From assembly GCA_964187785.1 (NCBI GenBank), contig OZ076409.1:48052001-48116000 (forward strand): 64,000 nucleotides of DNA. The letters run 5' to 3'. This DNA is from Amphiscolops sp. MND2022. Lineage: Eukaryota. Shown one piece after another: positions 32,641 to 63,531 of the stretch. A program made the translations under genes and the position numbers. Position 1 is the stretch's first letter. Each line of letters begins with the position of its first letter. The notes beneath the pieces are model-generated. The model ran no database searches. It was given only the letters and a program-made list of their open reading frames with translations, and was not told the origin of the DNA.

Positions 32641-33515
32641 CTCCCCCTGGCATGAGAAGAAACGTCCCTGCGGACATACCATCCAAGAAGGGTCTTCGTC
32701 TTGCTTCTTTTTCGGCTAAGGTCTCGTTTGGGTTTTTTGTTTTGTTTAGGTAGTCGTTGACTGCCTCTGACTAGATTTGATGGACTGATTTACCGCACAC
32801 CACACAGTCCGAACATTCATCAGAGCCGGAGTATCTGATACAACCATTTCATTAAAATCGTTTGAAATTAACTCTGAGACTGTATGAGTAGAGTAGTAAC
32901 TGCTAGGCGCGTTTGACCGGGTCTTCTATCTTCGATAGGAGGAGACAGCGGGGTATATACTTGAGGTCTTAAATTCCGACAGACATTAATAGGGTGGTTA
33001 TTTCTGACCCTTTCATCGCATGCTATTGCGCCGTTCCCACGACCGAGAATAAAAAACTTTTGATCTGAAGTGGGAAAAGGCTGTTCGTTAGGCCCCGGAG
33101 TACCGTTCCTCTTCTGTGCAGTAGTTGTCCCGATTGTCCATATAGTGACAGGATCAGCCAATTGCCATTGCATACATCTGGACAACACGTAAATGTCCTC
33201 TGATTCTTCATCTGACGAAGAGATCAATTCGTCTACTGAATCCGTACTAGAACAATCCATATGGTCGTCCTCATTGCTCGATAAGTAAAAAATTTTTGGC
33301 TCTGCATCAGATTGTGCGGCACCCACAAATTCCATTTGAAAAGTTTCGGATAAATTAGACATGAACCTCTCTCTTACTATCTTTTTAGCTTTTTTGGAAA
33401 ACGAATTTGTAGAGTAGGTTTTGAATTCCATGTTAAGGGTAGGCAGCCGAACAGTAAGACCAAAAATGAGTGATTGGTAATTTTCCTCGCTCGGATCCGC
33501 GAGAGATTCACCCAA
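32570..33515 (-). pseudogene. Accessory ORF homologue in copy 2
   Basis: IFYLSSNED, TPLSPP, CVVCGKSV and MPGGVSQAAA match VIYISSDEE, SPLSPP, CMVCGKSV and TPAVSQAAA of copy 1. Confidence 0.8.
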
Positions 33516-34559
33516 ATCCGTTTTTTTCCCGGGTTTTTACTTTCCCTTTTCAATCAAATATTCAACATCTTCGGCTTCGCTTTGATGGTAGCCGACCGCC
33601 TCATTAATGACACACATTAGCTTCCTTACTTCGTGAACGATGCAAGTATCCGTCAAGGACTTCACTCAGTGTTTACTTACACTCACTAATAACTTGAGAT
33701 TCTCAAGTAAATGAAGACATGGCTGAAGGCCACGCTGTCTCGCTTCTCTTGAGGCAGCCAGTAGGATCGATGTAAATTTTCTCCCTTTTCAAAATGACCG
33801 TCCAAGGATTAAAATCCATATAAGGAACAAATGAACATGGCCATGAAATGAAATAAAAATAAGCTAATGGTAAAAAAACAAAGCTATCGAAACATTTTAA
33901 TGTAGATATTTCTGGCAGATTCTCTCCACATGTCTCCATTAACATAGCGTAACTGTAACTTTGACATCAAACTGTATAGCCACGAACTCCAATTCTCGCT
34001 TTGACTTCTTGTCACATCATCAATTCAGCATTCCAAATCCTTACACTTTTTTCTTCACTGTATTATTCTTTCTTCTTTTGTATTATCCAGTATTTATTCG
34101 TGAGCAGTATTTATATAGCTTAGTATTCAGTCGACAGTTAGTCTTTATAGTTGTCTTATAGACGTTTTTCTCCATATTTTCCTCTTATATCGTCATATTG
34201 GGACGCTTCGTCCAAATACCCCGACTTCCGTAGATATCCCTGGTTTCCTCCGGATTGTCGACACTTTGGACGTTTGATACAGCTCATCTTCGGAATTTCT
34301 CCAGATCATCTCTCTTCCCGTGTGAACTACTACAGTCAGGCCTGCTTCCCTTTCCCTCACAGACCAGACTCGTCATTTGTTATCCTAAGCAATAGTTTTG
34401 TTCAAGTTAGACGCCCGTTGGGCTTTCTTGTGTTTAACTTTTTAAATTTGAACTAGAATAAGCTTGATCAGGGCTTTTCACTTTGTTCAAGTACTTCCTG
34501 TCCCAAAACACTAGTTTCCACTCGTGTTCAATTTTCTACTTCCGGAAGATTTTCAAACA

Positions 34560-37500: not shown

Positions 37501-38147
37501 AGGCTGGGTGTCCAATTCTCCAGACGCAGAGTCCGGGGACGAGTATCTAGAATTCTTCGACCAGTTTCGCAAGGCCTACGAGGATCTTCGAGATTCCCCA
37601 GAGGTCTTCACTGATATGATTTCGTTACTCACGCCCATGCCAGAACTGAGGAAGCGCAAGCATTTGTTCCATATCTTCAGTTGAGTTGCTTGTGTCTGAC
37701 GTCCAATGTGCCCAACTTGCCTCCTGTCACATTGCAGGGGTTGATAGGAGCTATCCTCGATGTCGGTTGACTGACGTAATCATACCTGCACAGTCTTACC
37801 TTACCAATGTTGCTGCTACAGTCACCTGTATGCACCGCTGAGGCCTGTTTAGACCAGTCCCGAGAACTCGAGTCTAGCTTCAGTAGCGGCAATGTCGCAG
37901 GCAATCCTTGGTCCGATGTGGACAGTTTCGGTAAAGCTAGCTTCGGGAAGGCACTGGATTGTCCGTCCACGAAACATTGAAGGCTAAACCTCCTCGAGTT
38001 GTCCGTTCTGTGACCTCCTCTGTTTCGAGTACCGAAGGGCGGCAGAGTAAACGATTGCCTGGGAAGAGTAAGAAAGGGGAAGTTTGGAGCCACTGCTTCC
38101 TCCGATATAACTGGAACTGTCGAGGATCCGCTCCAATGCTCGTCTAA
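34560..38147 (+). pseudogene. Antisense BED-finger/hAT-like gene homologue in copy 2 (frameshifted)
   Basis: MKEAYFKGIKWTKTFVTGPLDP...VYCQICKTN...RHYQAESHLRKDQR aligns with copy 1; introns at about 36024-36099, 36585-36658 and 36877-37008 are in equivalent positions. Confidence 0.85.
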
Positions 38148-38389
38148 AGACTAAATGTACATAGTGTACATTTATTCTGTAAACTTGTATCAGTTGTTCT
38201 TTTTTTTATTTACTATCATGTTTTGTTCATTTGTGTAGTAGGTCATCTTTCTCGGGCGTCTATTGTACTTTTCGTCTCTTTGTCCTATTGCTGACATTTT
38301 AATTTATATGTAATCCGAACAGTCCCACGAAAAAATACATGTCTGTTCATCAAGCAAATTGCGACATTAATTAATTTATTTTCTGGGCG

Positions 38390-41300
38390 ATATCTGTATT
38401 CATCGGTAAAGTTGGGGGTGGGGTATGGTCGAAAATTGTTTTTCCCTCCTCTAGAGCTTGAAATTTCTTCATTCATTTAGCGAGGACGTCACGTCTCGGC
38501 TGCTGGCCGGTCTTGGCTTTAGTCCATTTTCAGTGACGTCTTTTTCAGTTCTTTCGCTGCTGCGTTCAACTTCGTGTGCGGTATTGAAGTCGTCTTGCGG
38601 TATTAAATTATCCCGTCGTCGGACTGTAATTTCTCTCCAGAACATATTTCCTCTAAGGGCGTGTTTGGGACAAATGTTTTCAGTCTAATGATGTGTAATA
38701 TTTGCTTTTTGTTAGTATTTACTCGACGCACTATACAATTGTCGTTCGACAGGACTTTTGGAATGACAAAGAGCCAATCCATCGGTTGTCTCTAAACGGA
38801 ATTGCGATCCGTGGTTGTCTGCTTTAGGTTGTAGGATAAAACAAAAATCATTTTCTTTAAGCGGAGCAGCTTTGGCTTTTCGGTCATAATAGTCCTTGTA
38901 CTTTAAGTACGACTGCATGATTGTTTTCTTTGTATCGTCAATCAGTATTTGGGTCCTTTGCTGTATTTCATCCGCAAATTCAGTCGTTGGCAGAAAATCT
39001 TTATAAGGACCAATTCCTATTTTGTAATCTAGAGCGTTGTAGAGTATGCGTTGATGGTGTATGAATGTTTTGTCATGATATCAATTATCACTTTGGCTAC
39101 AATAGTAGCTGTCGCTTGAATGAGTGGGTAGGTGAAAAGGTATTTTGAGAAAACATCAATTGCTGTCATTACTATCTAGTATCCGCCGCTGGTAGGTAAA
39201 TTCGGCAGTAAATCGATTTGCATGGCATCTTCTGGACCAAGGTCCCATCCAGGCAAATTGAGCAATTCAGGCGTTATTGCGTTGTTTGGGACGCTCTGGC
39301 CTTGGCGCACGTTTTGTAGCCTTCAACCCATCTTTTGACGTGTTTTGCTATTCCTGGGTAGTAATGTTTTTGTCGATTTTCCTGTAACTTTTTGGATATG
39401 CCAGGGTGTTTGTGTGCCGTGCCATGTAGGGCAAGTAGTTTTTCTTTCAAAAATTGTTTAGACCCTAATATTTGATGCTATTTAATTTGTCCTGTTTCGT
39501 CTTAGTACTGTCGTGTCAGTACGTTGTTCTTGAGTATTATGCGGTCATTGTAGTTCAATTTATGTTTGTACCAAATGTGCTGTTTAAGAATTTCCTCAGA
39601 ACATTCTTCTTTCTGCATTTTCGCTTTGAGTTCAAGCAGAATTTGGTCTCTAGCTTGTTCCAACAGTATTTGGTTGGTTCGTCGTAACTCCTGAGTGAAA
39701 CTGATAATTTCATTCACGTTGTTCTAGAATATGGCGTCTATTTGTATTACGGTCTTGTCGACCGTATGTCCCTTTATGGACAATTTCTTGCGCTCCCAAA
39801 TCTGTTCTTCTGTTTCAACATCCTCTTCAGTGAAGAACACTTTCTCTTCTCCTGAACGCCGGCTGATTGGACATTTATATCAATGGGTCTAGTTTCAACA
39901 TCTCGTATTTTTAGGATCATTTTTTTGGTAGGATTCATTTCCATACGGAAAGGTAGTCCGCCGCTGTGTTATTTTTGCCTGGAATGTGGGCTATGATAAA
40001 ATTGAATTGTATCAAAATATCGCAAGCATTCCAAAGTGGCGGTGGTGTGATTTTTGAATAGAATAACCTAGTGACCGATTTGTTATCTGTGAGGATATTT
40101 GTTGCATTTGGTGTTCCACAGAAAGTGTGTCCTTGAAGGCGTAAAATATTGCTAAGAATTCTTTTGCACATACCGACAATTTCAGCTGGAAGGAGGTAAA
40201 TACTTTGGCTCCATAGGCTATAGGCGCATAAGGACTTTTTGACAGACGTGAACTTTTGATTCAAGTCATCTTCAGTCAGAATGGCATATCCGGTTGCCGT
40301 AAAACTTGCGTCTGACATTAACTTGCGTCTGACATTAAGACCAGTTGAAAATTTGGCAGTGGTTGCTTTAAGGCCAGCTGGCTAAACCTGTCCAGGTCCT
40401 GATTGATCTCGTTAAGTTGTTGTACTTTTTCCGTGGTCACTCAAACTTTCTAGTCCTTTTTAAGGAGTTCGAAGAATAGTACCAGTTTTTCTGATATTCT
40501 TGGAATGTAGTTCCTCTAGACCTTGAGGAAACCAAGATATCGTTGCAAGGCTTTCTTGGACTTCGAAAAATTTGTTTCCTCCAATAAGTTAGTGATTCTT
40601 TCTTTTTGGGCTTTGACACTTTCTGGGGTGATAGTTTTCCCCAAAAATTCAATTTCAGTTGCCCTGAAATAGCACTTGTGCATTGTTAAGTTTAGTCAAG
40701 CTTCTCGGATGCATTCAAATGTCGCCCTCAATTGTTTGATGAGTTGATCGGCATCGTTGGCAATAATACTGATGTCCTCGACATATTGAGCGCATTGATC
40801 TGCTTTAATAACTCTGTCGAGGTATCCCCTCATGAAGCTGGAAAAAGTCGATAGGGCTCTACTGAGTCCTTGAGCCAGGTTCCTGTAGGCAAACCTTCTG
40901 CTAGCGAAAAAGAAGGCTAGCAGTTTCATAGACCGTTGGTCTGCCATTTGGAGACATTGGTAGGCCTGCAAAGCAGTCGAGTTCACAGAAAAGTTTCTTC
41001 CCGAGCATGTGTTGCGCTGCGACCGTCAAGGTACACACTGGGTGGTTATTAATTTTAATATTATCATCTGAGATAAGATCCTTGATCTTTTTCAGGTAGA
41101 CCAGCAGTCTGAGTTTTTCATTTGGCTTTTTCTGCGCAAAAATGGGGTTCCCATATTTGAAAAATGGCAGAGTTGTAAAAATGCCGTATTTATGGAGTGA
41201 CGCCATTTCAACTAATATGTCCTCCTTCAAATTGATTGGGGTAGGCAAACTTTGGCTATAAGCAAGTGAATTGTGTAAACTGATGTCAAAACTATGAAGA

Positions 41301-44300
41301 GCAAAGATGTCATAGAATTCTATCAAAAAGGATTCGATATTTTTGATTTCATGATGTTGTACCATTGAAACCTTCCAATCAATGTTGCTATGAAACTTAC
41401 GTCTAGACTCTTCGTCATCGTTTGGATTTAGTTTTTCCTCATCTTACGAGTTGCGCAGTTCTTTGAGGATTCTTTTCTGTATTGGCGTGTGGGACTCCTG
41501 GTCTCCTGGGATTTTTGGTGCCGGAAACCAATATTGTTCGTATTGGTCGTTGTTGCGATTGGCTTTGAGCAAACTACTAATGTAGTAGACTGCATTTTCC
41601 TCGTTTTCATTTAGCAGATGCCATATGGACACTGACTTGACATGTTTCATTTGCTCTAGGGTCATCACCGAGAAGTTTGCTGCGTGAAGGCCTTTTTTGA
41701 GTTTATAAGACTGATCCGTGAAGTTTTAGATTGGTTTCCCCATTGACCCTTCTAATAAGGTGACTATCCAAAAGGTCCAAAAGGTCACATCACCATCTTC
41801 ATTTAGGATGTCACTTGGTTGCAAAATCCTTGTCACACCATTTTCTGCATATAATTGGGATTGGATAGTAATGACCATCCGATCATTTAAGGAATAGTAA
41901 TAAATATCTTCAGGGCAGAATATGGGCTCCATGTCAATCGAGTATTTATGGTCAGTAAATTTTTCAATTGAATTGAAAAACTTGGGAAACTTATGATGCC
42001 TTGTCGCATGTCCAGGACAGTGTGGTTCCTCTGTAGGAACATTAGTCCTATGATTGGACCAGTGAGTTTCTCCATCACAATGACATTTTCATGGAACTCG
42101 ATGTCCCCAACCTCGCATTACGATACATGAGCCGCATTGAACTAGCAAGGTCTTGCTATTTCGATAGACTGCCGATCACAACGCGTTACTATTTTAAAAA
42201 CTCATTACGCTTGATACTCATTGCACTATTTGAATAATCGTTTTACTAAGTGATTAAAACCGGTGGTTTAACTCGTTTACACTATTTTCATTTACGCACT
42301 TTGACTAATTTTCACTTCGCCCATCCATATGCAATTTGATTAAAATTCACTTCAGCCTGGTACACATTTTGACCAGAATACACTAGTTGATGGGTTCAGA
42401 CAGTATAAAACAATCGAACTGTGTAATTCGGGGTAACTTTGACGACATCATTGTAATACACGGAAACTTAATAATACGTTAAAAAAGTTGATTAGGTAAC
42501 CGTGTGAAACAAAACAAAAGTGATTGCTTCTTCACAACCCATTGATTTAACACATTCAATTTCGCCAAAAAATGAATTTGGTAAAATAATCGGATAGGTA
42601 AAACATTTATAAGTGTTCTGATTAATTCCGTTTCGACTATTTGCGAAATAATGAAATAGTAACGGAAACTAGCTGTAATTAAATATGTAGATTATATTTG
42701 TTTTATCTCTATTTGTCGGACAGTTCCTCTTCATAGGTTCACAAACAGTTGCATTGATGATATTTTTGATCAATAAAATCGTTGAAAATTCGCAAAACGT
42801 ATAGCTGATATATACTACATATAGTATACTTTTAAATCTTCAAGTTGTAAGTTATAATTGTGGGTATCTCGAAAATTTAATTGATTCTCTTTTACACCTT
42901 TAACGTTTTTTCTCTTGACAATGTGTAGATCATAATTGTTGTTATCTTTTTGTAGGAATGTTGCTCTTTACAGTTCGCAGAAAGTATCATTGATGATGTT
43001 TTGGATCTTTTAAAACGTTGCTCTTGACAGTCCGCAAAACGTGTAGTTGAAATTTTTGATCATAACAACAGTTGCTCTTGACAGTTCGCAAATGTACATG
43101 AATGCGACTTAGTCTGATTCCTAATTCTCTAATCTGATTGGTTAACAAAGCCTCGCGTCTCAAATATCATTGGTGTACCGATTGTCGATCGCTCAAACCC
43201 TCAGTCCCGATCATATTTATACAAAAAAGAATACGTTTTCCATGCGACTTTCACCCAGGAATGCCCCTTTATGAGGATTACTTATTGATTTATTGGGCAT
43301 ACTCAAATTTAAGGCGTAAATTGATGCAATCCTTCAACGGGGCGAGCAGGGTAAAGGACATCAGAAGAGATGTTGCCCCATCTACTCCTGCGATAATGTA
43401 CGCATTCGGCTTTCGAGACGGCACGGTGACGTAAAGTGTTAAAAACGAAGGCGCCTTATCCAATGCAAGTTGGAACACCATACTGGGGGACGAAAGGGCC
43501 AAGGTTGCGGTAGGAACAGTTGTTGTAATGTCCTTAAAGGGTAAAGAAGGTAGAAGCTGGACCCTCAACTTTAATAGGAGTATATTTGTACAAGCTACTC
43601 TCGTATCAAATGTAAACTTCAAGACCGTGCTGATTTACATTACGCATGTCGAGGAGCTTTGTTAACTGGTACATAATTTTTGTTTGATATAATTTCAATT
43701 CAATTTCTACTCCCATTTTTTTCTTTCATGATCAAACATTCTGAATATGGAAAACTTACAGTTAGATATGTCCAGGAACCGTCGTATTGGACAGCGTGCT
43801 GTGAATCGTCACTGCAACTGTGACGAGTATGAGGAGACGGTTTTGCGAACGCTCTACTTGCTTGTTTTCTCGTTTCGACTTCCACTTTACGGCCTGTGAT
43901 TAGCTCGATACAGTATGGCTACTATTAGCAGGCATACAGCGGGTATGAAGATTACGAAACTGTTTCACCATCCCATCACAGTCTGTAAAATGACAGATAA
44001 TCTTACCTTCAGCCAATGACAGTCCGTAAACTGAAAGATGAAAAAAGTTCATAAATAAACGGTGAACTAATGATAAAAGGCCCAATAAAATGAAAGATGA
44101 TCTTATAACTAGCTCATCACAGTCCGTCAAATGCAAGATAACAATTGCGTTAAAATCAAAGCGTTTAAAGTGTATTGAAGGTAGACAGACTCAAAATTTA
44201 GTTTAAGTCAATCAACTTAAACAGCGCAAAACAGTGTAAACCAATCAAACGATAGTGTAAGTCGACCGAGTTAAGCAACGTAAAACGGTCAAAGTTGTTA

Positions 44301-45480
44301 CAGAGTGAATTCAAAATTGAAGCGTTAGCACGAATTTGTCTAGTAATTTTGAATTGGTGTAAAGTAGTCAAACTTTGACTACTATCCGTTTTTTGAGGAG
44401 AATAATTTTTAAGTTTGTCAAAAAGTGAATTCAAGTTAACGTTTGACTGATTTACACTTGACACAACTCCCTGACTGGAAAACACTTTTTACGAATTACA
44501 CTTAATGATTGAAATTCGTGATACTGCATTTTACTGCTTGACTGAAATACGCAAAAAAGTAGCTAATACACGTTACACTCCTTGACTAAAATACGGTTAG
44601 AGATTATTTTACGCCGAAGTTATACTACACCTGATGATAAAAATTTACTTTTGCGACTCATGTATTGTTAAGCGAATTTTGAATCAACGGTGCTTTTTGA
44701 AGTTTGCAGTTGACAATTTGCGACCATGATTTGGAAGGTTGGGGCTGGTCCCTCCTTCACTGTGGATTGTGTGGCGAGATGGCGTTTTTTCTTGAGGTCA
44801 ACCTCTCGTATCGCACTTCAAAGGGCCAATGTGTCTATGAGGCCGTCAATAGTTAATTCTCCAAAATCCATTAGGAATAATAACATCCGTCTTTTATATT
44901 TGTTTATATCCGTCCGAGGTTTGTTGATAAGGGTATATATGATGGCTCACCTTTTTTGCGACTAAGACATGGAGGCTTTGTCCTTCCTGGTCTTCTTCAT
45001 CATACTGAAATTCCTGTGTTTCTTCCATGGTAGTTGGTTCAAGATTTGGCTGTCAAACCTCGTTGAGGGCCCTGGATAATTTGTTGTCTTCAATCACAGG
45101 GTCATCCACGTCGTCTGTCGGAATGTAATCATCACGACGGAATTCTAAGGTCATTTGTTCATACAGGGAATCATCCCAGTATGTATGTGTTCCGTACTCG
45201 GGGTCAAAGTAATTCAGGCCTATAATCTTCAATCAGTAGTGAAAGGCGAAATTGAGTCACAAAGGCTGCAGTATAGTCAAAGTTGTAGTATCGGTCTGGG
45301 CATAGTAGTATATCAAAAGTTTTGATATAGGCTTTTTCCATCTGTTGCTGCCAGACAACAGACGGAATACCATTGGTGTCCTTGATAAATTTGCTGAATT
45401 TAATTGTTGGGGGATCTGACGTTTTGTCGCACCGGCACAATGTCGTCATATATTTGGAGTCGTGGCAAAATTAGTTTTTT
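38390..45480 (-). pseudogene. pol: Decayed pol of copy 2, interrupted by the insertion at 42116-44672
   Basis: Many fragmentary ORFs similar to copy 1 pol (DQCAQYVED, SDASF, HIPGKNNTAADYLS, KDYYDRKAKAAPLKE). Confidence 0.9.
42116..44672. mobile_element. 2.56-kb non-autonomous TIR DNA element nested in pol, with an apparent CG duplication
   Basis: CATTACGATACATGAGCCGCA ... TGCGACTCATGTATTGTTAAG (17/21 inverted match); pol resumes in register on both sides (CCTCG|AATTT). Confidence 0.75.
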
Positions 45481-46517
45481 GTATCGGGCTTCTTTGAGTT
45501 TGATTGGCCTGAAGTGGATGTTTCAGCGTTATTGGCGTTATTGGATGTTGCTTCATCGCTTGAGGCTTCATTGGCTTTATTGTCGGGTCGGGTCCGTTTA
45601 GGAAGTAAATGAGCGCCCGCTCCCTGTCAGCATCTTTTTGTTGGGTGATTCTTTTTCCTACAGGTTTCACATTGTGGTTATGTTTGACGCTGCGGTTGCT
45701 GGCCACTTTTCTCCTCCATTTCTCTCTTCTTTTTCAATTTCGGACAGTTTTTCCAGAAGTGCCAGTAGCTTTACAATAAAAGCATTGGGCACCCTTGTTC
45801 ATTATTCCCCTGTACGGAAAACTTTCGTAAACGTTTTTCACCATTTGCATAGAAATCAGAGGGTGGAGTTGCGGTCACTGGTTGACGTTAAGCCTATAGT
45901 GGCCATTGGAATTCAGGAATTTGCCGTTGGGTGTCGGTAGCTCCTGTCACCATGTAAGGACTACGGTTTTCTCTGACTCTCAGATCATATGCAGACTTAG
46001 AGTCCTTCTTTGCTATTCCAGTTTCAGCCCAGTTGTCTTTTCCCTATTCTCATGACTATTAGAGCACTAGCTAGCCTCAGTGTCCCTATTTCCTGATGAT
46101 GACATTGAACTCACGATATAACATATTTTTGGAATGACTCTATCTAATATAGCTGAAATTGTGGCTTTGTTAAACTGAGCATGTACCATAGACATCATGA
46201 ATTCCATTTCTTGAGAAAGTCTCAGGTTAACTTCATTGGTGAAAGTTTCTCATGATACCAAAATACCCTCAAGTTTATGAACATTGTTTTCAAAATTTTA
46301 GCTTCGGAATTCAATTGTTAGGGGAAAATCTTCCCTTGGAGGTAAATAAACTCATTGTCGCTTTGAACAGATGATTCCACAATTGCACTAGCTAGTTCTC
46401 TCTCAATTGGATTGATGTTTTCACCTCCCACCATTACGTCTAGGTTATCATAGTCAAACATCAAGTCCATCTCTCTAGATCGCCTAGCTTTTGCTTTTGT
46501 CTCCTCGTAGAAGGCAT
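45471..46517 (-). pseudogene. gag: Gag remnant of copy 2 with the central region deleted
   Basis: ATG (MPSTRRQK) inside the LTR; zinc-knuckle remnants start only ~160 bp after the PBS, versus ~800 bp in copy 1. Confidence 0.75.
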
Positions 46518-47170
46518 AAAAATGGTTACAAGGGAAGAAGCAATTTAAGCCTTCATCTTGTGAAACAAAACTGGTATCAGCTGTTTAGCTGGACAATGGA
46601 TAGTTTCAACGAATTTTGTCGGGACTCAAGGTCCCCGGTATTATCATATACATTCTTGCATGACTAGCAACTTTACTGAAGTCCTAATCTTAAAACAGCC
46701 TGAAGGGCTTTCTGAAAGTAGCAGTGACTATTTTTTAGAAACAATGACGTCATGTTTATAGGTTGACGTCAAAGCAACTGCAGGCCGACACAGAAGATTA
46801 AAGGACTTGGAGGCATACCTAATATACATATATCCCTTAAGGACAAGCAACAATACAAACGAAGAACACTTCATGGATTTTTACATGTAATCATATGTTA
46901 CATGAAAAATAGTATGTGACTATCAGGCTTCACCACTTTTCAACACAACTCCTTTATTAACCAAGTTTTCTGATATATAAAGGCTACCATTTAACTATAT
47001 TGTGACATTTAATAAGCAGCGCTTTTCTGGAAATTGGGACTCAGTGTCCAATTGTTTAGAGTGGCACGCTTGCTAAGATGAATGGCCGTACTCGGCCTTT
47101 AATTCAAAAAAGTACAGCATAATTAAAAGAATGCCTCTGACCGGCCAAATTGTGAATTGGACGCGCGACA
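45953..47170 (-). repeat. 5' LTR of copy 2 (shortened at its distal end)
   Basis: Similar to 31151-32380; similarity ends at ...GCGCGACA 47170. Confidence 0.8.
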
Positions 47171-51216: not shown

Positions 51217-52039
51217 AACCTTGAAGTGAATAGTTAAAACGTTTGAGTTGTTCGACCTTTTTGGTCAATCTGAGGTTCTTTTTCAGCATAAAACGGCACT
51301 CTTCTCACTTACACAAAGCGTACTTCATAGCTAGTTCGTTCGTGATTGGACTATGTGAGCATTTTAACCGACGAATTTCACTAAAATTGAACCAAGGTCA
51401 ACAGTTTGAATTTTCTAGATTATTTGAATATTTTGTGGCCATGCGTCAGATTACAGTTAGAAATGCGAAAAAGTGTCATTGATTGTTATAGTAACTACCA
51501 TATCCATAAATATTACCAACTTTAAACTGTACCGTTAGTTTTCACGGCTGCTTTTGACTGGAATTCAAGTCCTGTTCAAGCGTACAATCAAATTTTAGTC
51601 TTCTTTAGAGACTGAAACGCTATTGCATTCTGATGTTTCAATATTTTGCTTTCGGTAATCTCATTAGTTCTCTGAACGCGAAACGTCAACATGTCCATGA
51701 ATCCATGAACTTCAGCAGTTATCCCGTTTTTACCTTCTGGGACCATGTGTTCAATTTCTATGAAAATAGGTCCCATAGTCCTATAAAATATTTGATGTCG
51801 AACATCGAAAACATTGACTGTCAGTTAAAAGTTTGTCATTAGATTTTATTACGGAGAAAATTTGCGTTCAAATAGGGGTCAATTTATACGATTTTAGCTT
51901 GTTCCAAACGTGGATTTCTGCTATTGTTGGACATTATTATAAAAAATATTAGGGTAAAACACGTGGTCCAATTTTTCTGCCTGAAGTGTCAAAACAGTTG
52001 CACGGACAATCCTCTAAGTATTTATATTCATATAATATT

Positions 52040-55000
52040 AGTAGTAAAAGAAGGGGGGTTTAAAACCACTTTTGGATCCCTGATCTTCATACATGCAATT
52101 CTCATCGAAGCTTTTGTATTACTGTAGAGCCACTTTTGGATCCCTAATCTTAATACATTGACAATTGAATGTTTGATGTTTTGACTGCTGAAACCGGCGA
52201 TGACAGCTGTTCAAACATGATAAAATCTTTGTTTTACCAATTACAGCTTCACATCTTCTGATAATAGAATTGAAATTCGTATATTATTCAACTATCGAAC
52301 TGAATAGTTCCACCTTTACATGAAAATGAACCAATTTGAATATCAGTTAATTTGGGTTTTAACATCCAACTAATTTTGAAATTCTCATTTTTTTCACCTA
52401 CCGAGAAAATACAGTGAAAACTGTAGGGCACTAGGTGTATGTGCACATAGCTGACTACGTTATAATATTAGTTTCGACAAAAAATGCCACTCGTTTTCAA
52501 CGTAGTGTCTTTAAGCCAAATGACTTTAAGCCATTGACCATTACAAGAAAGATTTAGTTATAAGAAACCATGCCAAGTGACCAAATGTTTTAAGCCAAAA
52601 GACTTTGCGCCAAATGACCAATTACCCAAAATCTAACGCGCATCATGGACAGAAGACATCGTCTTCTTAACATATAGACTTCGATTATCAATGCACATCT
52701 CTGAGAAACATTTGCAACATTGCCTTTTCTCAATCAAAATAGAAAGCTGTAGTAGCCGGAACAATGTTCAAAGAACAAGCTCTGAAGGTCATGAAAATTA
52801 GTTTTCTGTTTTCAAATCTCGACTGTGGACTTTAAAAGTGCAATGAGAATCTTATAATAGATTCGACCAAAGATTTCCCACCAGGCGCATACATTCTGCA
52901 ATAGAACATGGAGAAACCTTACCTTTGGGTGCAGAAACAACAACCAAGCCTGGATAAAGGCTAAAAAAGACACTGAAAAAGAAGAATGAAGCAATCGATT
53001 GTCTGAGAAACCAGAAAAGAGGAGCGAAAGTATCTTACTCCTTTTTTACACTCGATGATTACTGAGAGTTTGGAAATCCTCTCCGTTTAATACATGAATG
53101 TAGCCTGCTAATCAGGTACCAAAGCTGAGATGCAATTGTCTTGTAATTATTTAAAAAGTTAAAAGAGTTGTTGAATAGTCCAATCAACGTGTAACATTTC
53201 AGGTCAAAAGGTTAAAAAAATTGGGTAGAGCAATAAATGTAATATTCCTCTGAGGAAGAAGCAAGTATGGAGACAAAAATGTATTCCGTAGTCGAAACGA
53301 TATGTTATCTTTTCTCCAACGATATGTTAAAAGTGTACATGTCACAACAACTTGTAAGCAAAATACTAATTTTCAGGAGTCGGAAAAATTTTCGACTACT
53401 TATACAATCGTGTTGTTTTTTTTCCGACCTTCCGTTGAAGCTTTCAAACCCCCCATACGATTTTCAAATAATTTTGCTCAGTCATTTTTTACCCAAAGAG
53501 GCCCCGGCATGCGCAAAGGCATCAAAATCGTATGACTGAAATGTGAGTAATGTGGAAAAACCACTTTTTCGACTTTTTTTGATTTACTCAAAAACTGTCC
53601 ATACGATTCGATCGAAATTTCCTACAGTCATTCTACACCAGTTTAGGATCCTATGTGTGCAATGGCATCAAAATTGTATGGCTGAGATGCGCGAAACAGC
53701 CAAATTTATCCCAAAATGAAGTGAAAACAGCCATTTTTGTACTTCAGAAGGAAAAACCTAAGCCGACACCTTCACCGCACATGCGGCTCTGGTTCATTCT
53801 CCAATGCTGGTTCCATTCATGGTTGTTTCAGCCAGTGGTAGCTTTCTGCGCCCAATCATTCGTCAAAAGAAAGTTGTCTTTGACGTCCTAAGCTTTGAGA
53901 CCTTCGCAATTTTGTCGTTTCCCTCGAAAATTATGACTGTCAAGTTTCCATCAAAGCGGGGCCTCGTTGTCTTCATCAATCAAAACAAAACTAACTCTTC
54001 CACGTTTAAACCAGGTTCGTTGTGGACTTACGTTTCCAGGATTCTCAAAGCACCTTTAATGCTATAAAACCGAAAACATCCCATATGGGAAAATAGAAAA
54101 CTGCTATTCTTGCAAATCTAAGTTTTACTTACAGTAGCGTAATACAATATAAAAAGGAAATTCAAGAGTCAGGAAAAATAATCTGAAAATCCACTTCTAA
54201 CGTTTCAGTAGCAATAGCATCGAAGCTGAATGTAAGAACAATAATATTCTAACTCAAGAAGCAATATGGAGTAACTTCTAAATTTTCAAAAGCCATCTGA
54301 AGTTTATACGAGCAATGAGAAGACTTGTAAAAGAAATCGATGATCAATTCCACAAAAATTCTCGATACTAGATCGTTTTTGCACTCTTTGATCGTGGTTC
54401 ATAGTGATACCGCATTTGAAAAATTTGAAAACTATACAAAAATGATCGTACTGAAAAACTTCATTTCTCTTCTCACCGAAAACCAAGTTTGAACAAACTT
54501 AACTTAACTGACAAAAAATATATTTCTAGACTCATCTAACTTTCATCGGGGAACACTATGGGTGACATTGATTATTTAGTTTATTCAAACAAAACGCATT
54601 TTGTGAATCAACCTACCACGTTGATAAGTGAAGTGTTCTAGGTTTTGTATTCAAAGCAAAGAACTTTGGAAAATTCAAAACATTCCAAGTGTATCGGTTT
54701 TGATCGCGAACGTTCAACAGTTCAACACTTAAACAGAAATCAGCACCTACAAAGACGCAAGAAAGTGAAAAATTCAATTTTTTCAAATTTTGAAATTTGA
54801 GAACGAACAAAGTCTTTTTTTCATCCTTCCATTGAGAGTTTTGGACTTTTGGACTCGAACTTCTAGCGTTCAGTGTTCGTATACTATAGGTGTATTTACG
54901 TACCAAGTCCTCCGCGAAAAGCCTATTCCACTTTCAATGATCTTTGAGGAAACCTGTGTACTTTCAGGTTGAGTATAAACTGTGATCAAAGCTGATTGTT

Positions 55001-58000
55001 TGGTTCCTTAGCCAACGCCATCGGAAATAGAATTTCTCTTCCATTCTTCTGGCAACAAAATTCCAACAAATTGAAAATATTAAAAGTCAATTATGCTATT
55101 TTGATCTAGGAAGAAAAGCGTCAATTGATAAACTGTGTCCTAATTGAAAAACCGGACTTTCACAATATTGTTGCCATGCGTAATTATCGTTAGAACTTTG
55201 CCATTGTTCAATTTCACAGATTGTATCAGGAATTGTTAAATCATTGAACTCGCTTTCAGATTGACAACGTTTCCAAAGGGTGAACATGATTTTCTTTGCA
55301 ATTGGTCTCGCTTTTTGATTTCTGTTCGTAAACTGTGTGGGTATCCAACTTTTCGATGAAACTTCCAAGTAATATTCCACAGAGTCCAAAGATTGAATTG
55401 TTCCGCTCCACAGTTTTTTGATTGAAACGTAAAAAGTCTAGAAGGCTGAGCAAAGTTTTCGACAACTTCCCGCTCACATGGATTCCTTTTTTGAAAACTG
55501 GGCATCCGTGTCTTTTGTGTATTCCGACAAAGGTTTCAAGAAATGATATTCCCGATAAAAAACACCGATTTCAAGAAACCCTTGCAGCGCTCGGCTCTAC
55601 CAATTCTAGTTAGATATATGGTTGATATCAAAATGAACTTCGAATTCATCCAATTCTGACAATGATATTTTCGTAACAAGAGTGAATACAAAATGTTTTA
55701 TTTCATTCCCTGTTTGCGTTTGAGCAGTCACATGACTTCCTTCTTTATTCTCTATACCTTGTCCAAAACTATGATTCGGGAGCCTCTAAAACAAGCGAAC
55801 CGAACTGATGAATAGCCGTTGGATGCTTCAATGTTCTAACAAATAGAACGACCTTTTAATAGGTGTCTATTCAGCTTTTCTACCATATTCTTCGGAACTA
55901 ATCAAACGTAAGCGAGTTGATCTAACGAGATATAAAAAATCTTCAGGCGAAGGTTAAAATCGCAACGCCAAATCCTTTGAAAACAATTAGCAGAATGCTG
56001 CGAGTCTCGTGATTTGGTCAAGACTGTTTGTTTTTAGCGGCAAGCAAATAGTTCAGTGCTGTTTTTACAGCGCGTCGGAAGACGCGGAGAACCGAAAGAT
56101 GTAGCGACGATAATCTTCAGGTCAGAAGTCAGTTTGAAAGCTTAAAACAAAAACTTGAATACAAATAGGCACAGTGGTTTACGTGGAAAGTCTTGCAGCT
56201 AAATACGACATTTATTTGACTTGTATACAGAGATCATACTGTACCAGTAGAGTGGTTGTCCTAGGAGTGCTGTTTAGAAGACCTTGAGTTGCTGCTGCTG
56301 TTGTTTGCATGGTAGATTAAAGACGAAGGGGAGAAGACCCACTCATATCATGTTTCGTTCACTGCAACTCAATCCGGGCTCTGGAGGTCCACTGAAACAA
56401 AGAGTGAATAAAATAGTTGAACAGGTTGCCCTTGAAAGTGTCTTGCTAGCTGACAGTTTTCTTTGGAACCGCAAGATGAGTTCGGTTAAATCTGGCGGAA
56501 AATTCGTTCGGTTAAGCTTTTCCAAACAAAGTTGTTTTGGTTAAGGTCGTCAGTGTTGAAACATATTTTCGAAACAATGTCTAGAAATCTTCATTAACGT
56601 TCACTCTAGAACGCTACATCACAAACAACTGCTACAACGGTTTTCCCAACTCCTAATCTAAAAGAGCTTCGATTTGATCAACGTTATACACCACAAATCA
56701 TCGCAATTTTCTCATTAGTAACCTTTGCTTATTGAGTAGAATTTGAGTTCGATAACGGGTCAAAAACTTGGGAGCAAGCAGGCAATGTGGCCTTAGTGAT
56801 TAGTCCTGTAGCTAAATACCATACTCGTCTCAATTGTATCGAGCGATCAAACCACTGGGGTTACACTACATTTCTTCTTTCGACAGGACAATCGAAGACA
56901 TATTGTTCAGTTTATGAAGTCATCAACTGAACGCTTTGGGTTTGATTCAATTCTCCACTGACGAATTGTTTTCTCAACCATTGATCTTCCCATTGAAAAC
57001 GACTTCTTCATTGAAATATAGCTTCCTAAGCAACAAACCAGACTTCAAACGTCTCGATAAATTTTGTCACCTCCACGAAAGCTTCTGAGGTGAGAGCTGA
57101 GATTTTTGCAAGATTTCACAGTTACTGTACAGCTGTTCAATGTTCAAATCTCTGTACCAAATCATATACAAGCAGGCGGAGGCCAAGAGCGCGGACCCGA
57201 TTTCTGTACAGCTTTTCAATGTTCAAATCTCTGTACCAACTCAAATCCAAGCAGGTAGAGGCCATGCGCCGACGAGCCCAGAGGTCCGACCGGATTCTGG
57301 ACCGCGCTCTTGGCCTCCACCTGCTTTGACTTGAGTTGGTACAGAGATTTGAACACTGAACAGCTGTATAGAAATCCGGTCCGCGCACATGACCTCCACC
57401 GGCTTGGACTAGAGTTGCTACAGAGATTTGAACATTGAACAGCTGTACAGTAATTGTGGAGTGTTGCAAAAATCTCAGCTCCCAACTCAGAAGCTTTCGT
57501 GAAGGTGACAAATTTTTCCGAGTAGTTTGAACTCTGATCTGTTGCTTAGGAAGCTATATTCCAATGAAGAAGTCGCTTTCAATGGAAAGATCAATGGTGG
57601 AGAAAACAATTCGTCATTGGAGAATTGAATCAAACCCAAAGCATTCAAATGAAGACTTCAAACACTGAACAACTTCTCTTCTATTGTCCTGTCGCAAGAA
57701 GAAAAGTAGTGTGACCCCAGTAGTTTGATCGCTCGATACAATTGAGATGAGTATGGTATTTAGCTACAGGACTAGTCACTAAAACCATACTGCCTGCTTG
57801 CTCCCAAATTTTTGTCCTAACATTATCGAACTCAAGTTCTACACAATAAGCAAAGGATACTTACAAGAAAATACGACAAATTGTGGTGTATAATTTTGAT
57901 CAAATCGAAAATCTTTTAGCGTAGGAGTTGGGAAAATTGTTGTAGCAGTTGTTTGTGATGTAGCGTTCTAGAGTAAACGTTCATAAAGCTTTCTAGACAA

Positions 58001-61000
58001 TGTTTTGAAAATATGTTTCAACACTGACGACCTTAACCAAAACAGCATTGTTTGGAAAAGCTTAACCAAACGAATTTTCCGCCAGGTTGAACCGAACTCA
58101 TCTCGCAGTTCCAAAGAAAACTGTCAGCTAGCAAGACACTTTCAAGGGCAACCTGTTTAACTATTTTATTCACTTTTTGTTTCAGTGGACTTCCAGAGCT
58201 CGGATTGAGCTGCAGTGAACGAAACATGATAAGAGTCGGTCTTCTCCCTTCGTCTTTAATCTACCATGCAAACAACAGCAGCAGCAACTCAAGGTCTTCT
58301 AAACAGCACTTCTAAACAGCACTCCTTTTTGTTTTAAGCTTTCGAACTGACTTCTGACTTGAAGATTCTCGACGCTACATCTTTCGATTCTCCGCGTCTT
58401 CCGACGCGCTATAATAACAGCACTGAAACATTTGCTTGCCGCTAAAAACAAACAGTTTTGACCAAGTCACGAGACTCGCAGCATTCTGCGTAACTGTTTT
58501 CAAAGGATTTGGGGTTGCGATTTTAAACTTCGCCTGAAGATTTTTTTATACCTCGTTAGATAACTCGCTTACGTTTGTACGTTTGTTTAGTTCCAAAGAA
58601 TATGGTAGAAAAGCTGTATAGACACCTAGAAAAAGGTCGTTCTATTTGTTCGAACATTGAAGCATCCAACGGCTATTCATCAGTTCGGTTCGCTTGCTTT
58701 AGAGGCTCCCGAATCATAGTTGTGGACAAGGCATTGACACTAAAGAAGAAAGTTATGTGACTGCTCGAACGCAAAAAGGGAATGAAATAAAACAATTTGG
58801 ATTCACTCTTGTTACGAAAATATCAGTGTCAGAATTGGATGAATTCGAAGTTCATTTTGATATCAACCATATATCTAACTAAGATTTATAGAGCCGAGCA
58901 CTGCAAGGGTTTCTTGACATCGGTGTTTTTTATCGGGAATATCAATTCTTGAAACCTTTGTCGGAATACACAAAATAAATGAATGTGCAGCCTTCAAAAA
59001 AGGAATCATTGTGAGTGGGAAGTTGTCGAAAACTTTGTTCAGCCTTCTGGAATTTTTGAGTTTCAATTACTAAATTGTAGAGCGGAGCAATTCAATCTTT
59101 GAAATCTGTGGCGGAGAATTTGGAAGTTTCATCGAAAAGTTGGCCAATTGGATACCCACCCATTTTTCGAACAAAAATCACAAAGCGAGACCAATTGCAA
59201 AGAAGAACATGTTCACCCTTGGCAAATGTTGTTCCGGAAGCGAATTAAATGATTTAACAATTCCTGATGCAATCTGTGGAAATTAACAAGGGCAAAGTTC
59301 AAAAGGTAATTACGGCATGGCAACGTTTTTGTGAAAGTCCGGGTTTCCAATTAGGACACAGTATATCAATTGAAGCTTTTCTTCCTAGATCAAAAAAGCA
59401 TAATTGACTTTTAATATTTTCAATTTGTTGGAATTTTGTTGCCAGAAGAATGGAAGAGAAATTCTATTTTCGATGGCGTTGGCTAAGGAACCAAACAATC
59501 AGCTTTGATCACAGTTTATACTCAACCTGAAAGGACACGGGTTTCCTCAAAGATCATTGAAAGTGGAATAAGCTCCTCGCGGAGGACTTGGTACGTAAAT
59601 ACACCTACAATGTACGAACACTGAACGTTAGAAGTTCGGGTCCAAAAGTCCTAATTACTAATTGCGGCAACTACCCAGTAACTACTTGATGATTGTGATT
59701 CTTAGCTTGTGTTTCTAGTTCACCAGTAATTGTTGTTTCTCACTCTTTATGTGTGTTAGTTATTGTACCGGCAGCTGAGGTATCATACTCGTTGGATATC
59801 GCAAGCAAAGTTTCATCACATGCTTTCTCCGGTTTGAACATTTGAAATGGAGTATCTGCTATTTCCTGCTTTTCTTATTCATTTCTTTTCAAGACTTTGT
59901 TCGTTCTCAAATTTCAAAATCGGAAAAAATGAATTTGTTCATGTTCTTGCGTCTTTGTAGGTGCTGAATTCTGTTTAAATTTTGAACTGTTGTACGTTCG
60001 TGATCAAAACCGATACACTTGGATTGTTTTGATTTTTCCAAATTCCTTTGCTTTGACTACAAAACCTAGAACACTTCACTTATCTACGTGGTAGGTTGAT
60101 TCACAAAATGCGTCTTATTTGAATAAGCTAAATAATCAATGTCACCCATAGTGTTCCCCGATGAAAATTAGTTGAGTCTAGAAATAATTTTTTGTCAGTT
60201 AAGTTAAGTTTGTTCAATATTGATTTTCGGTGAAAAGAGAAATGAAGTTTTTCAGGACGATCATTTTTGTATAGTTTTTATGTTTTTTAAATGCGGTATC
60301 ATTGTGAACCACGATCAAAGAATGCCAATTCGATCTAGTATCCAGAATTTTTGTGGGATTGATCATCGATTTTTTTACAAGTCGTCTCATTGCTTTGGCT
60401 GTAGAACGTGTGCAAAAGTTCATGAAAATCGTAAGCAAAGTTTTCGAGAAGTTTGAAATTTTCATTGAAAGGTTGGTAAAAAAACGAAACGACTGCATAA
60501 ATTTTTTCCGACTCCTAAAAACATTAGTCTTTTGCTTACAAGTCGTTGTGTCATTTACTCTTTTGACCCATCGTCGGAGAAAAGATCCCATCGTGGCTCG
60601 TTTCGACTACGGAATACACTTGCCTCCATACTTGCTTCTTCCTCAGAGGAATACTACATTTATTGCGCTACCCAATTCTTTTATACCTTTTGACCTGAAA
60701 TGTTGCACTTTGATTGGACTATTCATCACCTCTTTCCACAATTTGAATAATTACAAGACAATTGCATCTCAGTTTTGGTACCTGATTAGCAGGCTACATT
60801 CAGGTATTAAACAAGAATGATGTACATACCTCACCGAAACTAAGACTCTCAGTAATCATCAAGTGTAAAAAAGGAGCAAGATACAAAGATTTTATCATGT
60901 TTGAACAGCTGTCATCGCAGGTTTGAGCAGTCAAAACATCAAACATTCAATTGTCAATGTATTAAGATCAGGGATCCAAAAGTAGTTCTACAGTAGTACC

Positions 61001-61083
61001 CAAGTTTCGATGAGAATTCCATGTATGGAGATCAGGGATCCAAAAGTGGCTCTAAACCCCCTTCCCCTTCTCTTACTACTACT
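52040..61083. mobile_element. 9-kb palindromic (fold-back) element with Polinton/Maverick-like termini
   Basis: Starts AGTAGT and ends ACTACTACT, flanked on both sides by AATATT; the arms are reverse complements around a centre at ~57270-57303. Confidence 0.75.
57126..57450. repeat. ~78-bp tandem units, two per arm, at the palindrome centre
   Basis: TACAGCT-TTCAATGTTCAAATCTCTGTACCAA...AAGCAGG-GAGGCCA repeated, then mirrored. Confidence 0.85.
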
Positions 61084-63531
61084 AATATTCTCTTATCAGT
61101 GAAATATTTTATTCAAGAACAAAATGTGCTTTCGTGTTCGGGAGGGGGATTCGCAACAAGGTATACCTGGTGGGCTGTTGTGGTGGTAATTGAACACATG
61201 GTCCAACTTCTGCTGTAAGAATCATATTTTTTCAAACTTTTGAAATTCCCATTTTCTCTTCCCACGATCAACGCTAATCTTGTTTCAATATAGTGAATAC
61301 TTGCAGCGTCTAGCTTTCCTTTCCTCCGTCGTAGTCAGGAAATACTGACCTGCTGCTAAAAGCTGGAATCTCAGCTGATAACAAAAGCCTATGTATGACG
61401 AAGTGTGGAATTTGTGTGAGAAGGCTTCGAATCCGATCTACCTTGGTTTTACAGAGTTGGATTTCCAATTTTATGGGCTGTGAAAGAGAAAAGGACTTCA
61501 TACAATTTTCATAGATCCATGCAACGAATTTCCATTGTATCTACTTAAAACTTTGTCGAGATTTTTAGAACATTGCATAAAAACTGCATGGTTTTCAGCA
61601 ACTTCAACGTCTAAAAGCTGAGCGAAATTTGCAAGGAATAGGAAGTTCCTGGCTTTATTTGTTTATAGTATTGTAAACAGCCTTCCAACGTACAAAATGA
61701 AAACTACTTTCTCCATGCTTGAACAAGTTATTGCAAGAAATCAGCTTTGAAGAATCTAGAATCTAAAAAAGGCAATTCTCAAGCATTGGAGCAGCAATAC
61801 CAGTTTGAATTTTCAACTTCAAAATGTCTATCAGCAGCATCAAATGTACAGAAACTGAAAATCATAGGCGCTACGGTGCTTGCTTTATTTGCTTGTTTAT
61901 GCTTGTTTGACACCAAATAAATTCAGGCTATAAATCATCTGCATCCCAAATAGTCTCGAAGATATAGGCCATAGAAAACTGGAACGGATGAAAGTCTCTT
62001 TGAATCAAGGATTAGTTTTTGTCAATAATTGCAGAAAGTAGCTACTTCAACGAGATGAAAGTACGTCCACGAGAGGGCCCCAGGAGTGCACCCAGAAAAG
62101 TATACACCTATCGTGCAAGTAATGCAAATGGTTTTTGGAGTTGTTACAGTCATTTGTTGAGAAGTGAGATTATAAGCTCAACCTACCAAATTTCTCACGA
62201 AACAACCATGATGGATCCTGCTGTGGTTCCTGCATTAGAACAGAGGCAATTAAAAGAGACATTTTTTAGTGGAGGAAACTGTACTACAATAGGATTAGCT
62301 TCGAAGGTATCGGCAATAGGAAACTAAAGTGGGTAAGGAGTCGCATTTGATCAATGATAATTATTGTTAGAAATTGAACTAAGTAGCTATTTTGGCGAGA
62401 TGAGAGTAGTTCAGCAAGAAGGCCCCAAGGGTGCACCGTAACAAAATATTTGTGCATCAAGTCAGTTTCTTGAATGGTTTTCGAGATAAAAACAAACCGG
62501 GAACTGTCCAAGTCGGCGTCATACCTAAGGGTCAAGAAAAGAAAAAGAACTTCAAAATGTCAAAGTATTCTCTTCAACAGTACCCAAAAAACACTGAAGT
62601 TGGACCGAATTGGCGCGCCAGGGGGGACGCTTTGAGATTTTTCAACGTCCATTCTGTCGCAAAACTTCAAAAAAATCAAGAGGAGACCCTTTGCGAAGCT
62701 TTTTCAAAAAAGTCTCAGTGCCAAAAAAAACTGAAAAGGGGACCTTTCAGTCTCGCACGGTATTGTATGTTACGCGGAAAAAAAGAAAAACATTTTTAGT
62801 TAAGGTCCCTGGACCGAAAGGTACAGTTTGGCGCCTTCCTCCAAATTTGCACATCATGGAGGACGTGGAACGAGGGCACAATGGTCAGAAAAAGTTGGTC
62901 AATGTCACACTTTTTGAGAGAAACAAACGCGAGGACCACCGTTAGCGTGATGGAAAATGTTGTACGAAAAGGCCCAGTGACTGCACCATGAAAAAGCGAT
63001 ACCCATCATGCCATTAGCTTGACTGGCTGCGACAAAAACAGTAGCCAACTGATTGGAAAATGGTGTTAGGATGTGACCTATCAAGGTTTCAAATGAAAAG
63101 GTCAAATTTGGAACAATCGTCGACAAAGATTTCTCTACTAGAATGTAGTCCAGAGTTGTGTCAAAGTTGGTTCTGAAAAAAAAACAAAGGCGTGCACATC
63201 ATAGAGGACGAGGAACGAGGGCCCAATGATCATAAAAATTTAGTCAATGTCACGCATTTGAAAGAAATAACGAGAATTTGCATCCTAAAATCCCATGGCA
63301 ATAGACTTCGCTTCAATTCGCTCAAATTTACAAAATCAGTCGTAACTTTCCTTTCATACCAATCAAGACTATAACTGCTTAATAATGGCAATTGTTTGTG
63401 TCGCCGGCTAGCGCACCAAAAATCTCACGAAGAATTAAAAGCGGACCTGAGGTCTTTTCGACTGCGAGAGACAACTCCACCAATTTTTTTCCTCAAACTC
63501 AGCCGACCTACAAAAGTAGCTGAAAACAAGC

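What the first reader, a model, noticed from the sequence alone, without database searches (positions are those of the whole stretch)
52040..61083. 9-kb palindrome with Polinton-type ends: a candidate integrated snap-back defective genome
Seen: AATATT|AGTAGT ... ACTACTACT|AATATT. The arms (about 5.2 and 3.8 kb, differing by indels) mirror each other up to a ~35-bp spacer, and no pPolB, integrase or capsid ORF is visible. Known: AGTAGT termini and 6-bp TSDs characterise Polintons/Mavericks, whose TIRs are normally at most ~1 kb. Inference: strand switching during protein-primed replication copied one end back on itself, as in viral copy-back defective genomes. If transcribed, it would form a long dsRNA able to produce siRNA against the parent family.
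Basis: partly seen in the sequence, partly recalled or inferred. Interest (0 to 1): 0.7.

Follow-up and report, generated by a model that had tools for sequence, protein, structure and literature searches.

The report
Old palindromic Polinton-ended hitch-hiker element
This 9-kb stretch of an animal genome is a real, gene-less mirror-image element with the ends typical of virus-like Polinton transposons and with related copies elsewhere, so it is likely a decayed hitch-hiker that would be copied by an intact Polinton's enzymes, a kind of structure already glimpsed in salmon.

Summary
The palindrome is real. Arms of about 5.2 and 3.8 kb are 90.6% identical over 3,421 columns, too diverged for a read or assembly fold-back. 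The ends are (AGT)2 and (ACT)3 with AATATT outside both, the canonical Polinton/Maverick signature. No polymerase, integrase or capsid remnant was detected, although a similarly aged retroelement in the window still scores. So it is more likely one old copy of a propagating, non-autonomous palindromic family than a one-off snap-back accident. Not shown: a link to an autonomous Polinton, variable target duplications, the orientation of other copies, or any RNA. No genome or sequencing run was available. Precedent exists in print (a 10-kb palindrome in a salmon Polinton-like insert), and this scan reported similar elements in two other animal genomes. New member of a known kind; interest 0.35.

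The parts
52034..52039 (.). AATATT, left flank; likely 6-bp target-site duplication (self-palindromic)
52040..52045 (+). (AGT)2 terminal motif
   Evidence: motif as in PMC8097293
52040..57288 (+). left arm (to 57269 on the conservative reading)
52061..52158 (+). two subterminal 34-bp direct repeats (52061-52094, 52125-52158; 88% alike), mirrored at about 60957-61054
52231..53029 (+). 799 bp present only in the left arm, 2-bp GT microhomology at the junction; insertion here or deletion from the right arm, not resolved
53450..54309 (+). about 860 bp mostly unique to the left arm, holding a 34-bp motif repeated at 146-bp spacing; direction of change not resolved
54634..55631 (.). arm stretch matched by gene calls from other copies (mirror at 58857-60073)
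56154..56261 (+). about 100 bp missing from the right arm, where the junction carries a 13-bp tandem duplication (58296-58323)
57122..57288 (+). two 79-bp G+C-richer units at the inner end of the left arm
57289..57290 (.). likely symmetry centre, 2-nt loop in TCCG-AC-CGGA, at the end of the second 79-bp unit
   Evidence: 13 of 300 shuffles as good; alternative register
57291..57454 (-). two mirrored 79-bp units at the inner end of the right arm
57291..61083 (-). right arm (from 57305 on the conservative reading)
59655..59890 (-). 236 bp present only in the right arm; also present in outside copies P0040 and P0044, so lost from the left arm
61075..61083 (+). (ACT)3 terminal motif, one triplet more than the left end
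61084..61089 (.). AATATT, right flank; likely 6-bp target-site duplication

Best explanation
This gene-less 9-kb element consists of two mirror-image arms with AGTAGT/ACTACT ends and a six-base flanking repeat, has related sequence on other contigs, and is likely an old copy of a non-autonomous Polinton/Maverick family that would be replicated and integrated by the enzymes of an intact Polinton. Shown: palindromic anatomy, ends, flanking hexamer, no detectable core genes, about 10% neutral-looking divergence between arms, deletions in both arms, related sequence elsewhere. Inferred: (1) a founder arose when synthesis from one end folded back or switched strand at the end of the 79-bp repeats and copied that end onto itself, giving two identical ends and almost no loop; (2) two correct ends are all that a protein-primed polymerase and a retroviral-type integrase supplied in trans would need, so the palindrome could spread as a unit; (3) this copy was integrated at AATATT; (4) it then decayed, with more change near the axis and large one-sided deletions, as expected for an unstable long palindrome.
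For: Ends and 6-bp repeat match the published Maverick signature; chance of the motif at an arbitrary inverted-duplication boundary is under 1%. No Pfam family in 12 frames while a decayed retroelement of similar age (LTRs 89.5% alike) still gives RVT_1 at 5e-10; PRD1 and phi29 polymerases give no match at E<=10. No 3-base periodicity in arm mismatches (235/247/225). phmmer of one read-through frame finds 7 proteins at E<=0.001, one self and 6 others, which expand to 16 gene calls on 14 contig lengths; all 16 map only to this element in the window. Two pairs cover the same span on equal-length contigs: P0050/P0051 (69 of 71 identical) and P0043/P0055 (120 of 122, sharing a change of frame that the 8 cluster members reaching that far lack). 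Control: among 36 listed members of three retroelement clusters one pair shares a contig length, and it is the two non-overlapping halves of one split ORF. Best axis has a 2-nt loop at a unit boundary. Earlier scan notes place Polintons in this genome (not checked here).
Against: No sequence link to any autonomous Polinton was obtained: 0 look-alikes in scan notes, none in viral or metagenome contigs. TSD status rests on one self-palindromic hexamer. The paired gene calls give neither orientation nor distance, and 'same contig' is inferred from equal length; P0049 on another contig is as close to P0050/P0051 (69 of 71) as they are to each other. The 14 contig lengths do not overlap those listed for the retroelement clusters, so same assembly or species is unproven. 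The outside matches cover only about 1.2 kb of the arm. Two further protein searches found no relative. E2F-like palindrome arrays and histone stem-loops noted in this genome's Polintons were not found in the arm with recalled motifs (3 single E2F-like sites, 0 stem-loops).
Confidence: 0.62

Rival explanations
1. One-off snap-back: a single defective replication product of a parent element was integrated here and never spread as a palindrome; the outside matches are ordinary one-armed relatives.
For: Near-zero loop fits the snap-back definition in PMC13506859 (passages, given there for RNA viruses). The two arms resemble each other (74-90% aa in the main tblastx blocks) more than any outside copy found (39-72%). 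No other copy was seen as DNA.
Against: Two equal-length-contig pairs carry the same span twice at 97-98%. The matched arm stretch is non-coding by all tests, unlike the gene-dense interior of intact Mavericks. Closer copies would be hidden by the 50% clustering of the library, so the arm-to-arm closeness is weak evidence.
Confidence: 0.13
2. Chromosomal route: an integrated Polinton (possibly one with very long TIRs) had its inverted repeat extended by break repair or conversion and lost its gene-bearing middle, with no fold-back during extrachromosomal replication.
For: TIR extension by repair is described for Galileo and said to be reported for Polintons (PMC3573991, passages). Arm divergence is patchy (5-16.5% per 300 columns, chi-square 39, df 11, p 5e-5), as patchy conversion would give. 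A scan note on another genome says polymerase-carrying relatives are built the same way (e1-8072377; unchecked).
Against: A random central deletion would seldom leave both arms ending at the same 79-bp unit boundary with a 2-nt loop.
Confidence: 0.14
3. Not Polinton-derived: a foldback element of another DNA-transposon superfamily (for example Mutator-like), two copies of a repeat inserted back to back, or a local inverted duplication.
For: No Polinton gene or donor found. A 9-bp duplication can be drawn (7 of 9 bases match if the third ACT is counted as target), which would make the two ends symmetric (sequence). Mutator-like elements are abundant in an acoel genome (5.7%, PMC6451197).
Against: The 9-bp reading needs two mismatches and a target that happens to extend the ACT repeat; the 6-bp reading is perfect and canonical. 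Motif-at-boundary chance is under 1%. No inner termini or second duplication at the centre. Flanks share no homology beyond the hexamer.
Confidence: 0.1
4. Assembly or library artefact (read fold-back, amplification chimera).
For: Long palindromes are a known artefact class (own knowledge).
Against: Arms differ at 9.4% of columns with large one-sided indels; exact gene calls from both arms (P0037, P0038, P0039) are each recorded on a 557,313-bp ENA contig, the length also recorded for the window's retroelement ORFs.
Confidence: 0.01

Closest known systems
Polinton/Maverick elements (PMC8097293, passages and section 7; PMC6431247 and PMC4196379, passages)
   Same: (AGT)2//(ACT)2 ends, 6-bp flanking duplication, terminal inverted repeats
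   Different: No polymerase, integrase, ATPase, protease or capsid gene; 9 kb against 12.7-24.6 kb; inverted repeat fills the whole element against 46-1,447 bp in vertebrate Mavericks
Palindrome-containing Polinton-like insert upstream of Chinook salmon gh1 (PMC2584663, passages)
   Same: About 10-kb palindrome assigned to a Polinton in an animal genome
   Different: There the palindrome is part of a 20-kb insert and is only mentioned; here it is the whole element, with both ends and the flanking repeat
Named non-autonomous Polinton families such as Polinton-1N1_DR (name seen in PMC9341505, one passage); Kapitonov and Jurka 2006 and Jurka et al. 2007 (not readable; my recollection that they describe zebrafish non-autonomous Polintons made mostly of multi-kb inverted repeats is unverified)
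   Same: Gene-less dependants with Polinton ends
   Different: Their structure could not be checked here; different host lineage
Snap-back and copy-back defective viral genomes (PMC13506859, passages)
   Same: Symmetric palindrome with two copies of one end; helper dependence
   Different: Described mainly for RNA viruses and as transient molecules; this one is chromosomal, old and apparently multi-copy
Foldback-like DNA transposons such as Galileo (PMC3573991, passages)
   Same: Long inverted arms, longest in transposase-less copies
   Different: Galileo arms are up to about 1.3 kb with 7-bp duplications and P-superfamily transposase; ends differ

Membership tests
Polinton/Maverick (autonomous) | (AGT)2//(ACT)2 or related terminal microsatellite | tested here: met
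   motif from PMC8097293
Polinton/Maverick (autonomous) | 6-bp target-site duplication | tested here: inconclusive
   AATATT on both sides, but self-palindromic and seen in one copy only
Polinton/Maverick (autonomous) | [quoted passage not shown] | tested here: not met
   the weak PHROGs hit is to a profile that matches bacterial genomes and a PolA-type exonuclease domain
Polinton/Maverick (autonomous) | retroviral-type integrase gene | tested here: not met
   (best 2.0 bits)
Polinton/Maverick (autonomous) | ATPase, protease and capsid genes | tested here: not met
   0 Pfam families at E<0.1 in 12 frames; control; Pfam coverage of divergent capsids is limited
Polinton/Maverick (autonomous) | TIR of tens of bases to about 1.5 kb around a unique interior | tested here: not met
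   arms 3.8-5.2 kb, interior 2-35 bp against 46-1,447 bp
Non-autonomous Polinton derivative | ends shared with an autonomous Polinton of the same genome | not testable with these tools
   no genome held, no runs listed
Non-autonomous Polinton derivative | lacks its own replication and integration genes | tested here: met
Non-autonomous Polinton derivative | multiple dispersed copies | tested here: inconclusive
Snap-back defective genome | full-length symmetry with almost no loop | tested here: met
   (2-nt loop best; 35 bp at most)
Snap-back defective genome | arm is a terminal fragment of an identified parent genome | not testable with these tools
   no parent found
Mutator-like foldback element | 9-11-bp target-site duplication (size recalled, from no call) | tested here: not met
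   best 9-bp reading matches 7 of 9 and borrows the terminal ACT (sequence)

The most novel reading that the evidence does not exclude
The element belongs to a distinct class of Polinton satellites that replicate as hairpin-ended linear DNA: one protein-primed AGTAGT end and one covalently closed end formed at the 79-bp repeats. The chromosomal palindrome is then the opened, double-length form, which presents two integrase-ready ends. Such satellites would be the first abundant natural evidence for the proposed single-stranded, self-annealing Polinton intermediate, and read-through transcripts could silence the helper family.
Probability: 0.2. Interest if true: 0.65.

Novelty: new member of a known kind. 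Interest (0 to 1): 0.35.

Why it matters
Polinton replication has been inferred from sequence rather than observed; the single-stranded 'racket' intermediate is a proposal (as summarised in PMC4196379). A gene-less family that is all inverted repeat shows which cis signals suffice (the ends, and possibly the central 79-bp units) and predicts an easily detected hairpin or dimer DNA in the animal. This particular copy is old and decayed, the structure has a printed precedent, and the scan has met it in two other genomes, so its value is as one more lineage and as a pointer to younger copies.

Tried and rejected
No whole genome held. Exact motif scans: 0 matches in viral contigs and metagenome contigs; a 17-nt end motif gave 27 viral loci, none extending beyond 25 bases (chance). 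Protein-guided scans: none in viral contigs; one weak metagenome locus L001 with no nucleotide or tblastx support (rejected). Protein searches with arm translations: none at 59560-59952, none for (query fell in an unintended frame), self only for P0037. The right-only 236 bp has the most protein-like composition (score 8.6 against a shuffled maximum of 7.5 in 30 shuffles) but no relative was found. A PHROGs 'DNA polymerase' hit (E 0.0038, then 0.0003) was followed up: absent from the left-arm counterpart, no PDB or phage match, the profile rings in 10 of 14 bacterial control genomes and its match carries a PolA exonuclease domain; rejected as chance. Atlas search of P0037 gave only 0.75. Rfam gave only sub-threshold matches, two of them generic long-hairpin scores at the centre. 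No empty-site copy of the flanks in the window. The 16 outside proteins have no Pfam support (7 of 16 scanned) and shift frame against the window, so I treat them as spurious gene calls that mark DNA copies, not as genes. Literature: 10 searches found no paper devoted to palindromic non-autonomous Polintons; the founding papers are outside the library, and no supplementary files were read, so curated repeat libraries may already describe such families.
Full report
Observation. The palindrome is present as described. The sequence shows AATATT at 52034-52039, AGTAGT from 52040, ACTACTACT at 61075-61083 and AATATT at 61084-61089. Self-comparison of the window gives five collinear inverted blocks at 81-92% identity running from the ends to the centre. 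A global alignment of the arms has 3,421 columns after leaving out the poorly aligned 53450-54309 stretch and blocks under 14 bases, with 166 transitions and 157 transversions (9.4%, K2P 0.10). Arms this different, with one-sided indels of 100-860 bp, cannot be a read fold-back or an amplification chimera. Exact gene calls from both arms are also recorded on an ENA contig of 557,313 bp, the same length recorded for the window's retroelement ORFs.

The ends. (AGT)2//(ACT)2 with a perfect 6-bp duplication is the commonest Maverick end (PMC8097293, passages and section 7). AGTAGT occurs at 3.4e-4 per position in this window; allowing 12 bp of slack and three motif types gives 0.4-0.9%. A direct match of two flank 6-mers has a chance of 7.5e-4, and 1.6% of 6-mers are self-palindromic. 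AATATT is self-palindromic, so this copy cannot separate target duplication from outermost arm; the match stops after six bases, exactly where a Polinton duplication should sit. A 9-bp reading needs two mismatches and borrows the third ACT.

The centre. Each arm ends inward in two 79-bp units. Scanning all axes, the best is 57288|57291 with a 2-nt loop in TCCG-AC-CGGA, and both inner units then run to their natural end. Only 13 of 300 shuffles of the spacer extend as well, which is modest support, and the energy model prefers a neighbouring register. The founder therefore probably had almost no loop and folded at a repeat-unit boundary. Divergence is highest here (16.5%).

Coding content. The longest stop-to-stop frame is 170 aa. 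Twelve read-through frames give no Pfam family below E 0.1. As a control, the decayed retroelement at 38601-42100, whose LTRs are 89.5% alike, still gives RVT_1 at 5e-10 in 1 of 3 frames. PRD1 and phi29 polymerases, both strong DNA_pol_B_2 members, find nothing in six frames, and the window's own integrase scores at most 2.0 bits. Arm mismatches show no 3-base periodicity and every frame has stops shared by both arms, so the arm was already non-coding when it was duplicated. One PHROGs 'DNA polymerase' hit in 6 frames (E 0.0038; 0.0003 on a shorter piece) was rejected: the left-arm counterpart lacks it, and the profile matches 10 of 14 bacterial control genomes and a PolA-type exonuclease domain.

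Relatives. No genome and no run were available. A phmmer search with one read-through frame of 54400-55701 returned 7 proteins at E<=0.001, one from this window and 6 others; their clusters hold 16 non-self gene calls on 14 contig lengths. All 16 map to both arms and nowhere else in the window, at 39-72% summed identity, with frame shifts; they are spurious translations marking related DNA. P0040 and P0044 run through 59655-59890, so the left arm lost that piece; the right arm has its own loss with a 13-bp duplication at the junction. Two pairs cover the same span on equal-length contigs, P0050/P0051 (69 of 71) and P0043/P0055 (120 of 122), as two young arms of one element would. Among 36 listed members of three retroelement clusters (6 of 6, 15 of 39, 15 of 44) one pair shares a contig length, and it is two halves of a split ORF. 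Limits: orientation is unknown, P0049 on another contig is equally close to the first pair, same assembly is unproven, and copies closer to this one would be hidden by clustering. Two other protein searches, five look-ups of scan notes by sequence or relatives and six collection scans found no relative.

Host context. Ty3/gypsy-type retroelements fill much of the window. Earlier scan notes call this genome an acoel worm with multi-copy Polintons; I did not check this. One acoel genome is 4.5% Maverick and 5.7% Mutator-like (PMC6451197, passages). Motifs noted in this genome's Polintons (E2F-like arrays, histone stem-loops) were not found in the arm with recalled patterns.

Mechanism. Shown: anatomy, ends, absence of core genes, neutral decay, related DNA elsewhere. 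Inferred: a founder formed when synthesis from one end folded back at the 79-bp repeats; with two correct ends it could be primed and integrated by a helper's polymerase and integrase, in line with the proposed self-annealing single-stranded intermediate (summarised in PMC4196379, passages); this copy entered at AATATT and decayed. I put 0.62 on this, 0.14 on chromosomal TIR extension plus central loss (PMC3573991, passages; patchy divergence), 0.13 on a one-off snap-back, 0.10 on a non-Polinton foldback or local duplication, 0.01 on artefact. For silencing, the copy keeps 46 perfect arm-to-arm runs of at least 21 bases, but there is no evidence of transcription either way.

Comparison with the known. 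It fails membership as an autonomous Polinton (no genes, TIR far outside 46-1,447 bp) and works like a non-autonomous derivative; the defining shared-end test could not be run. A 20-kb Polinton-like insert holding a 10-kb palindrome was reported in Chinook salmon (PMC2584663, passages), and a non-autonomous family name, Polinton-1N1_DR, is in use (PMC9341505, one passage). Kapitonov and Jurka 2006 could not be read; my recollection that it and Jurka et al. 2007 describe long-armed non-autonomous Polintons is unverified. Snap-back genomes are defined in PMC13506859 (passages). PMC5499653, PMC8502044, PMC6431247 and PMC1864894 were seen as passages and gave background only. Ten library searches found no paper devoted to such palindromes; no supplements were read. 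The scan reported similar 14-kb and 16.9-kb elements in two other genomes (unchecked notes, not independent support).

Verdict. Observation confirmed, interpretation partly supported. New member of a known but thinly described kind; interest 0.35. The hairpin-ended satellite reading has probability about 0.2 and would deserve 0.65.

Noticed in passing
window 1086-16987: Young Ty3/gypsy-type LTR retrotransposon (LTRs about 1.7 kb, 99.3% alike; 5-bp duplication GGGAA; gag, protease, RT, RNase H, integrase on the minus strand). It carries two extra ORFs on the opposite strand (4550-5833, 7497-8726) with no Pfam match whose 90% clusters have 44 and 39 members against 6 for gag; the first is 427 aa here and 677-707 aa in many copies.
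   Followed up: partly
window 31151-47163: Older LTR element (LTRs 89.5% alike) with a decayed pol at about 38600-42100; used as the detection control. Its inner LTR is preceded by the same 11 bases as the young element's, a likely shared primer-binding site.
   Followed up: partly
window 18591-21539: Tandem duplication of 1,475 bp, 98.6% alike, each copy holding a 54-bp dimer with a related inverted copy at 24432-24570.
   Followed up: no
window 56150-56239 and 56763-56852: Faint (68%) 90-bp internal duplication within the arm, older than the arm duplication.
   Followed up: no
window 52040-61083: Arm divergence is uneven (5% to 16.5% per 300 columns, p 5e-5), highest at the centre and at 55235-55537; CpG sites are not more changed than other C/G sites (19.0% against 18.5%), so no sign of CpG-methylation decay.
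   Followed up: partly
P0041 cluster (10 members): A younger subfamily of this arm, 84-98% alike in translation among themselves and about 47-65% to this copy, on contigs of 4-578 kb; the best place to look for intact ends.
   Followed up: partly
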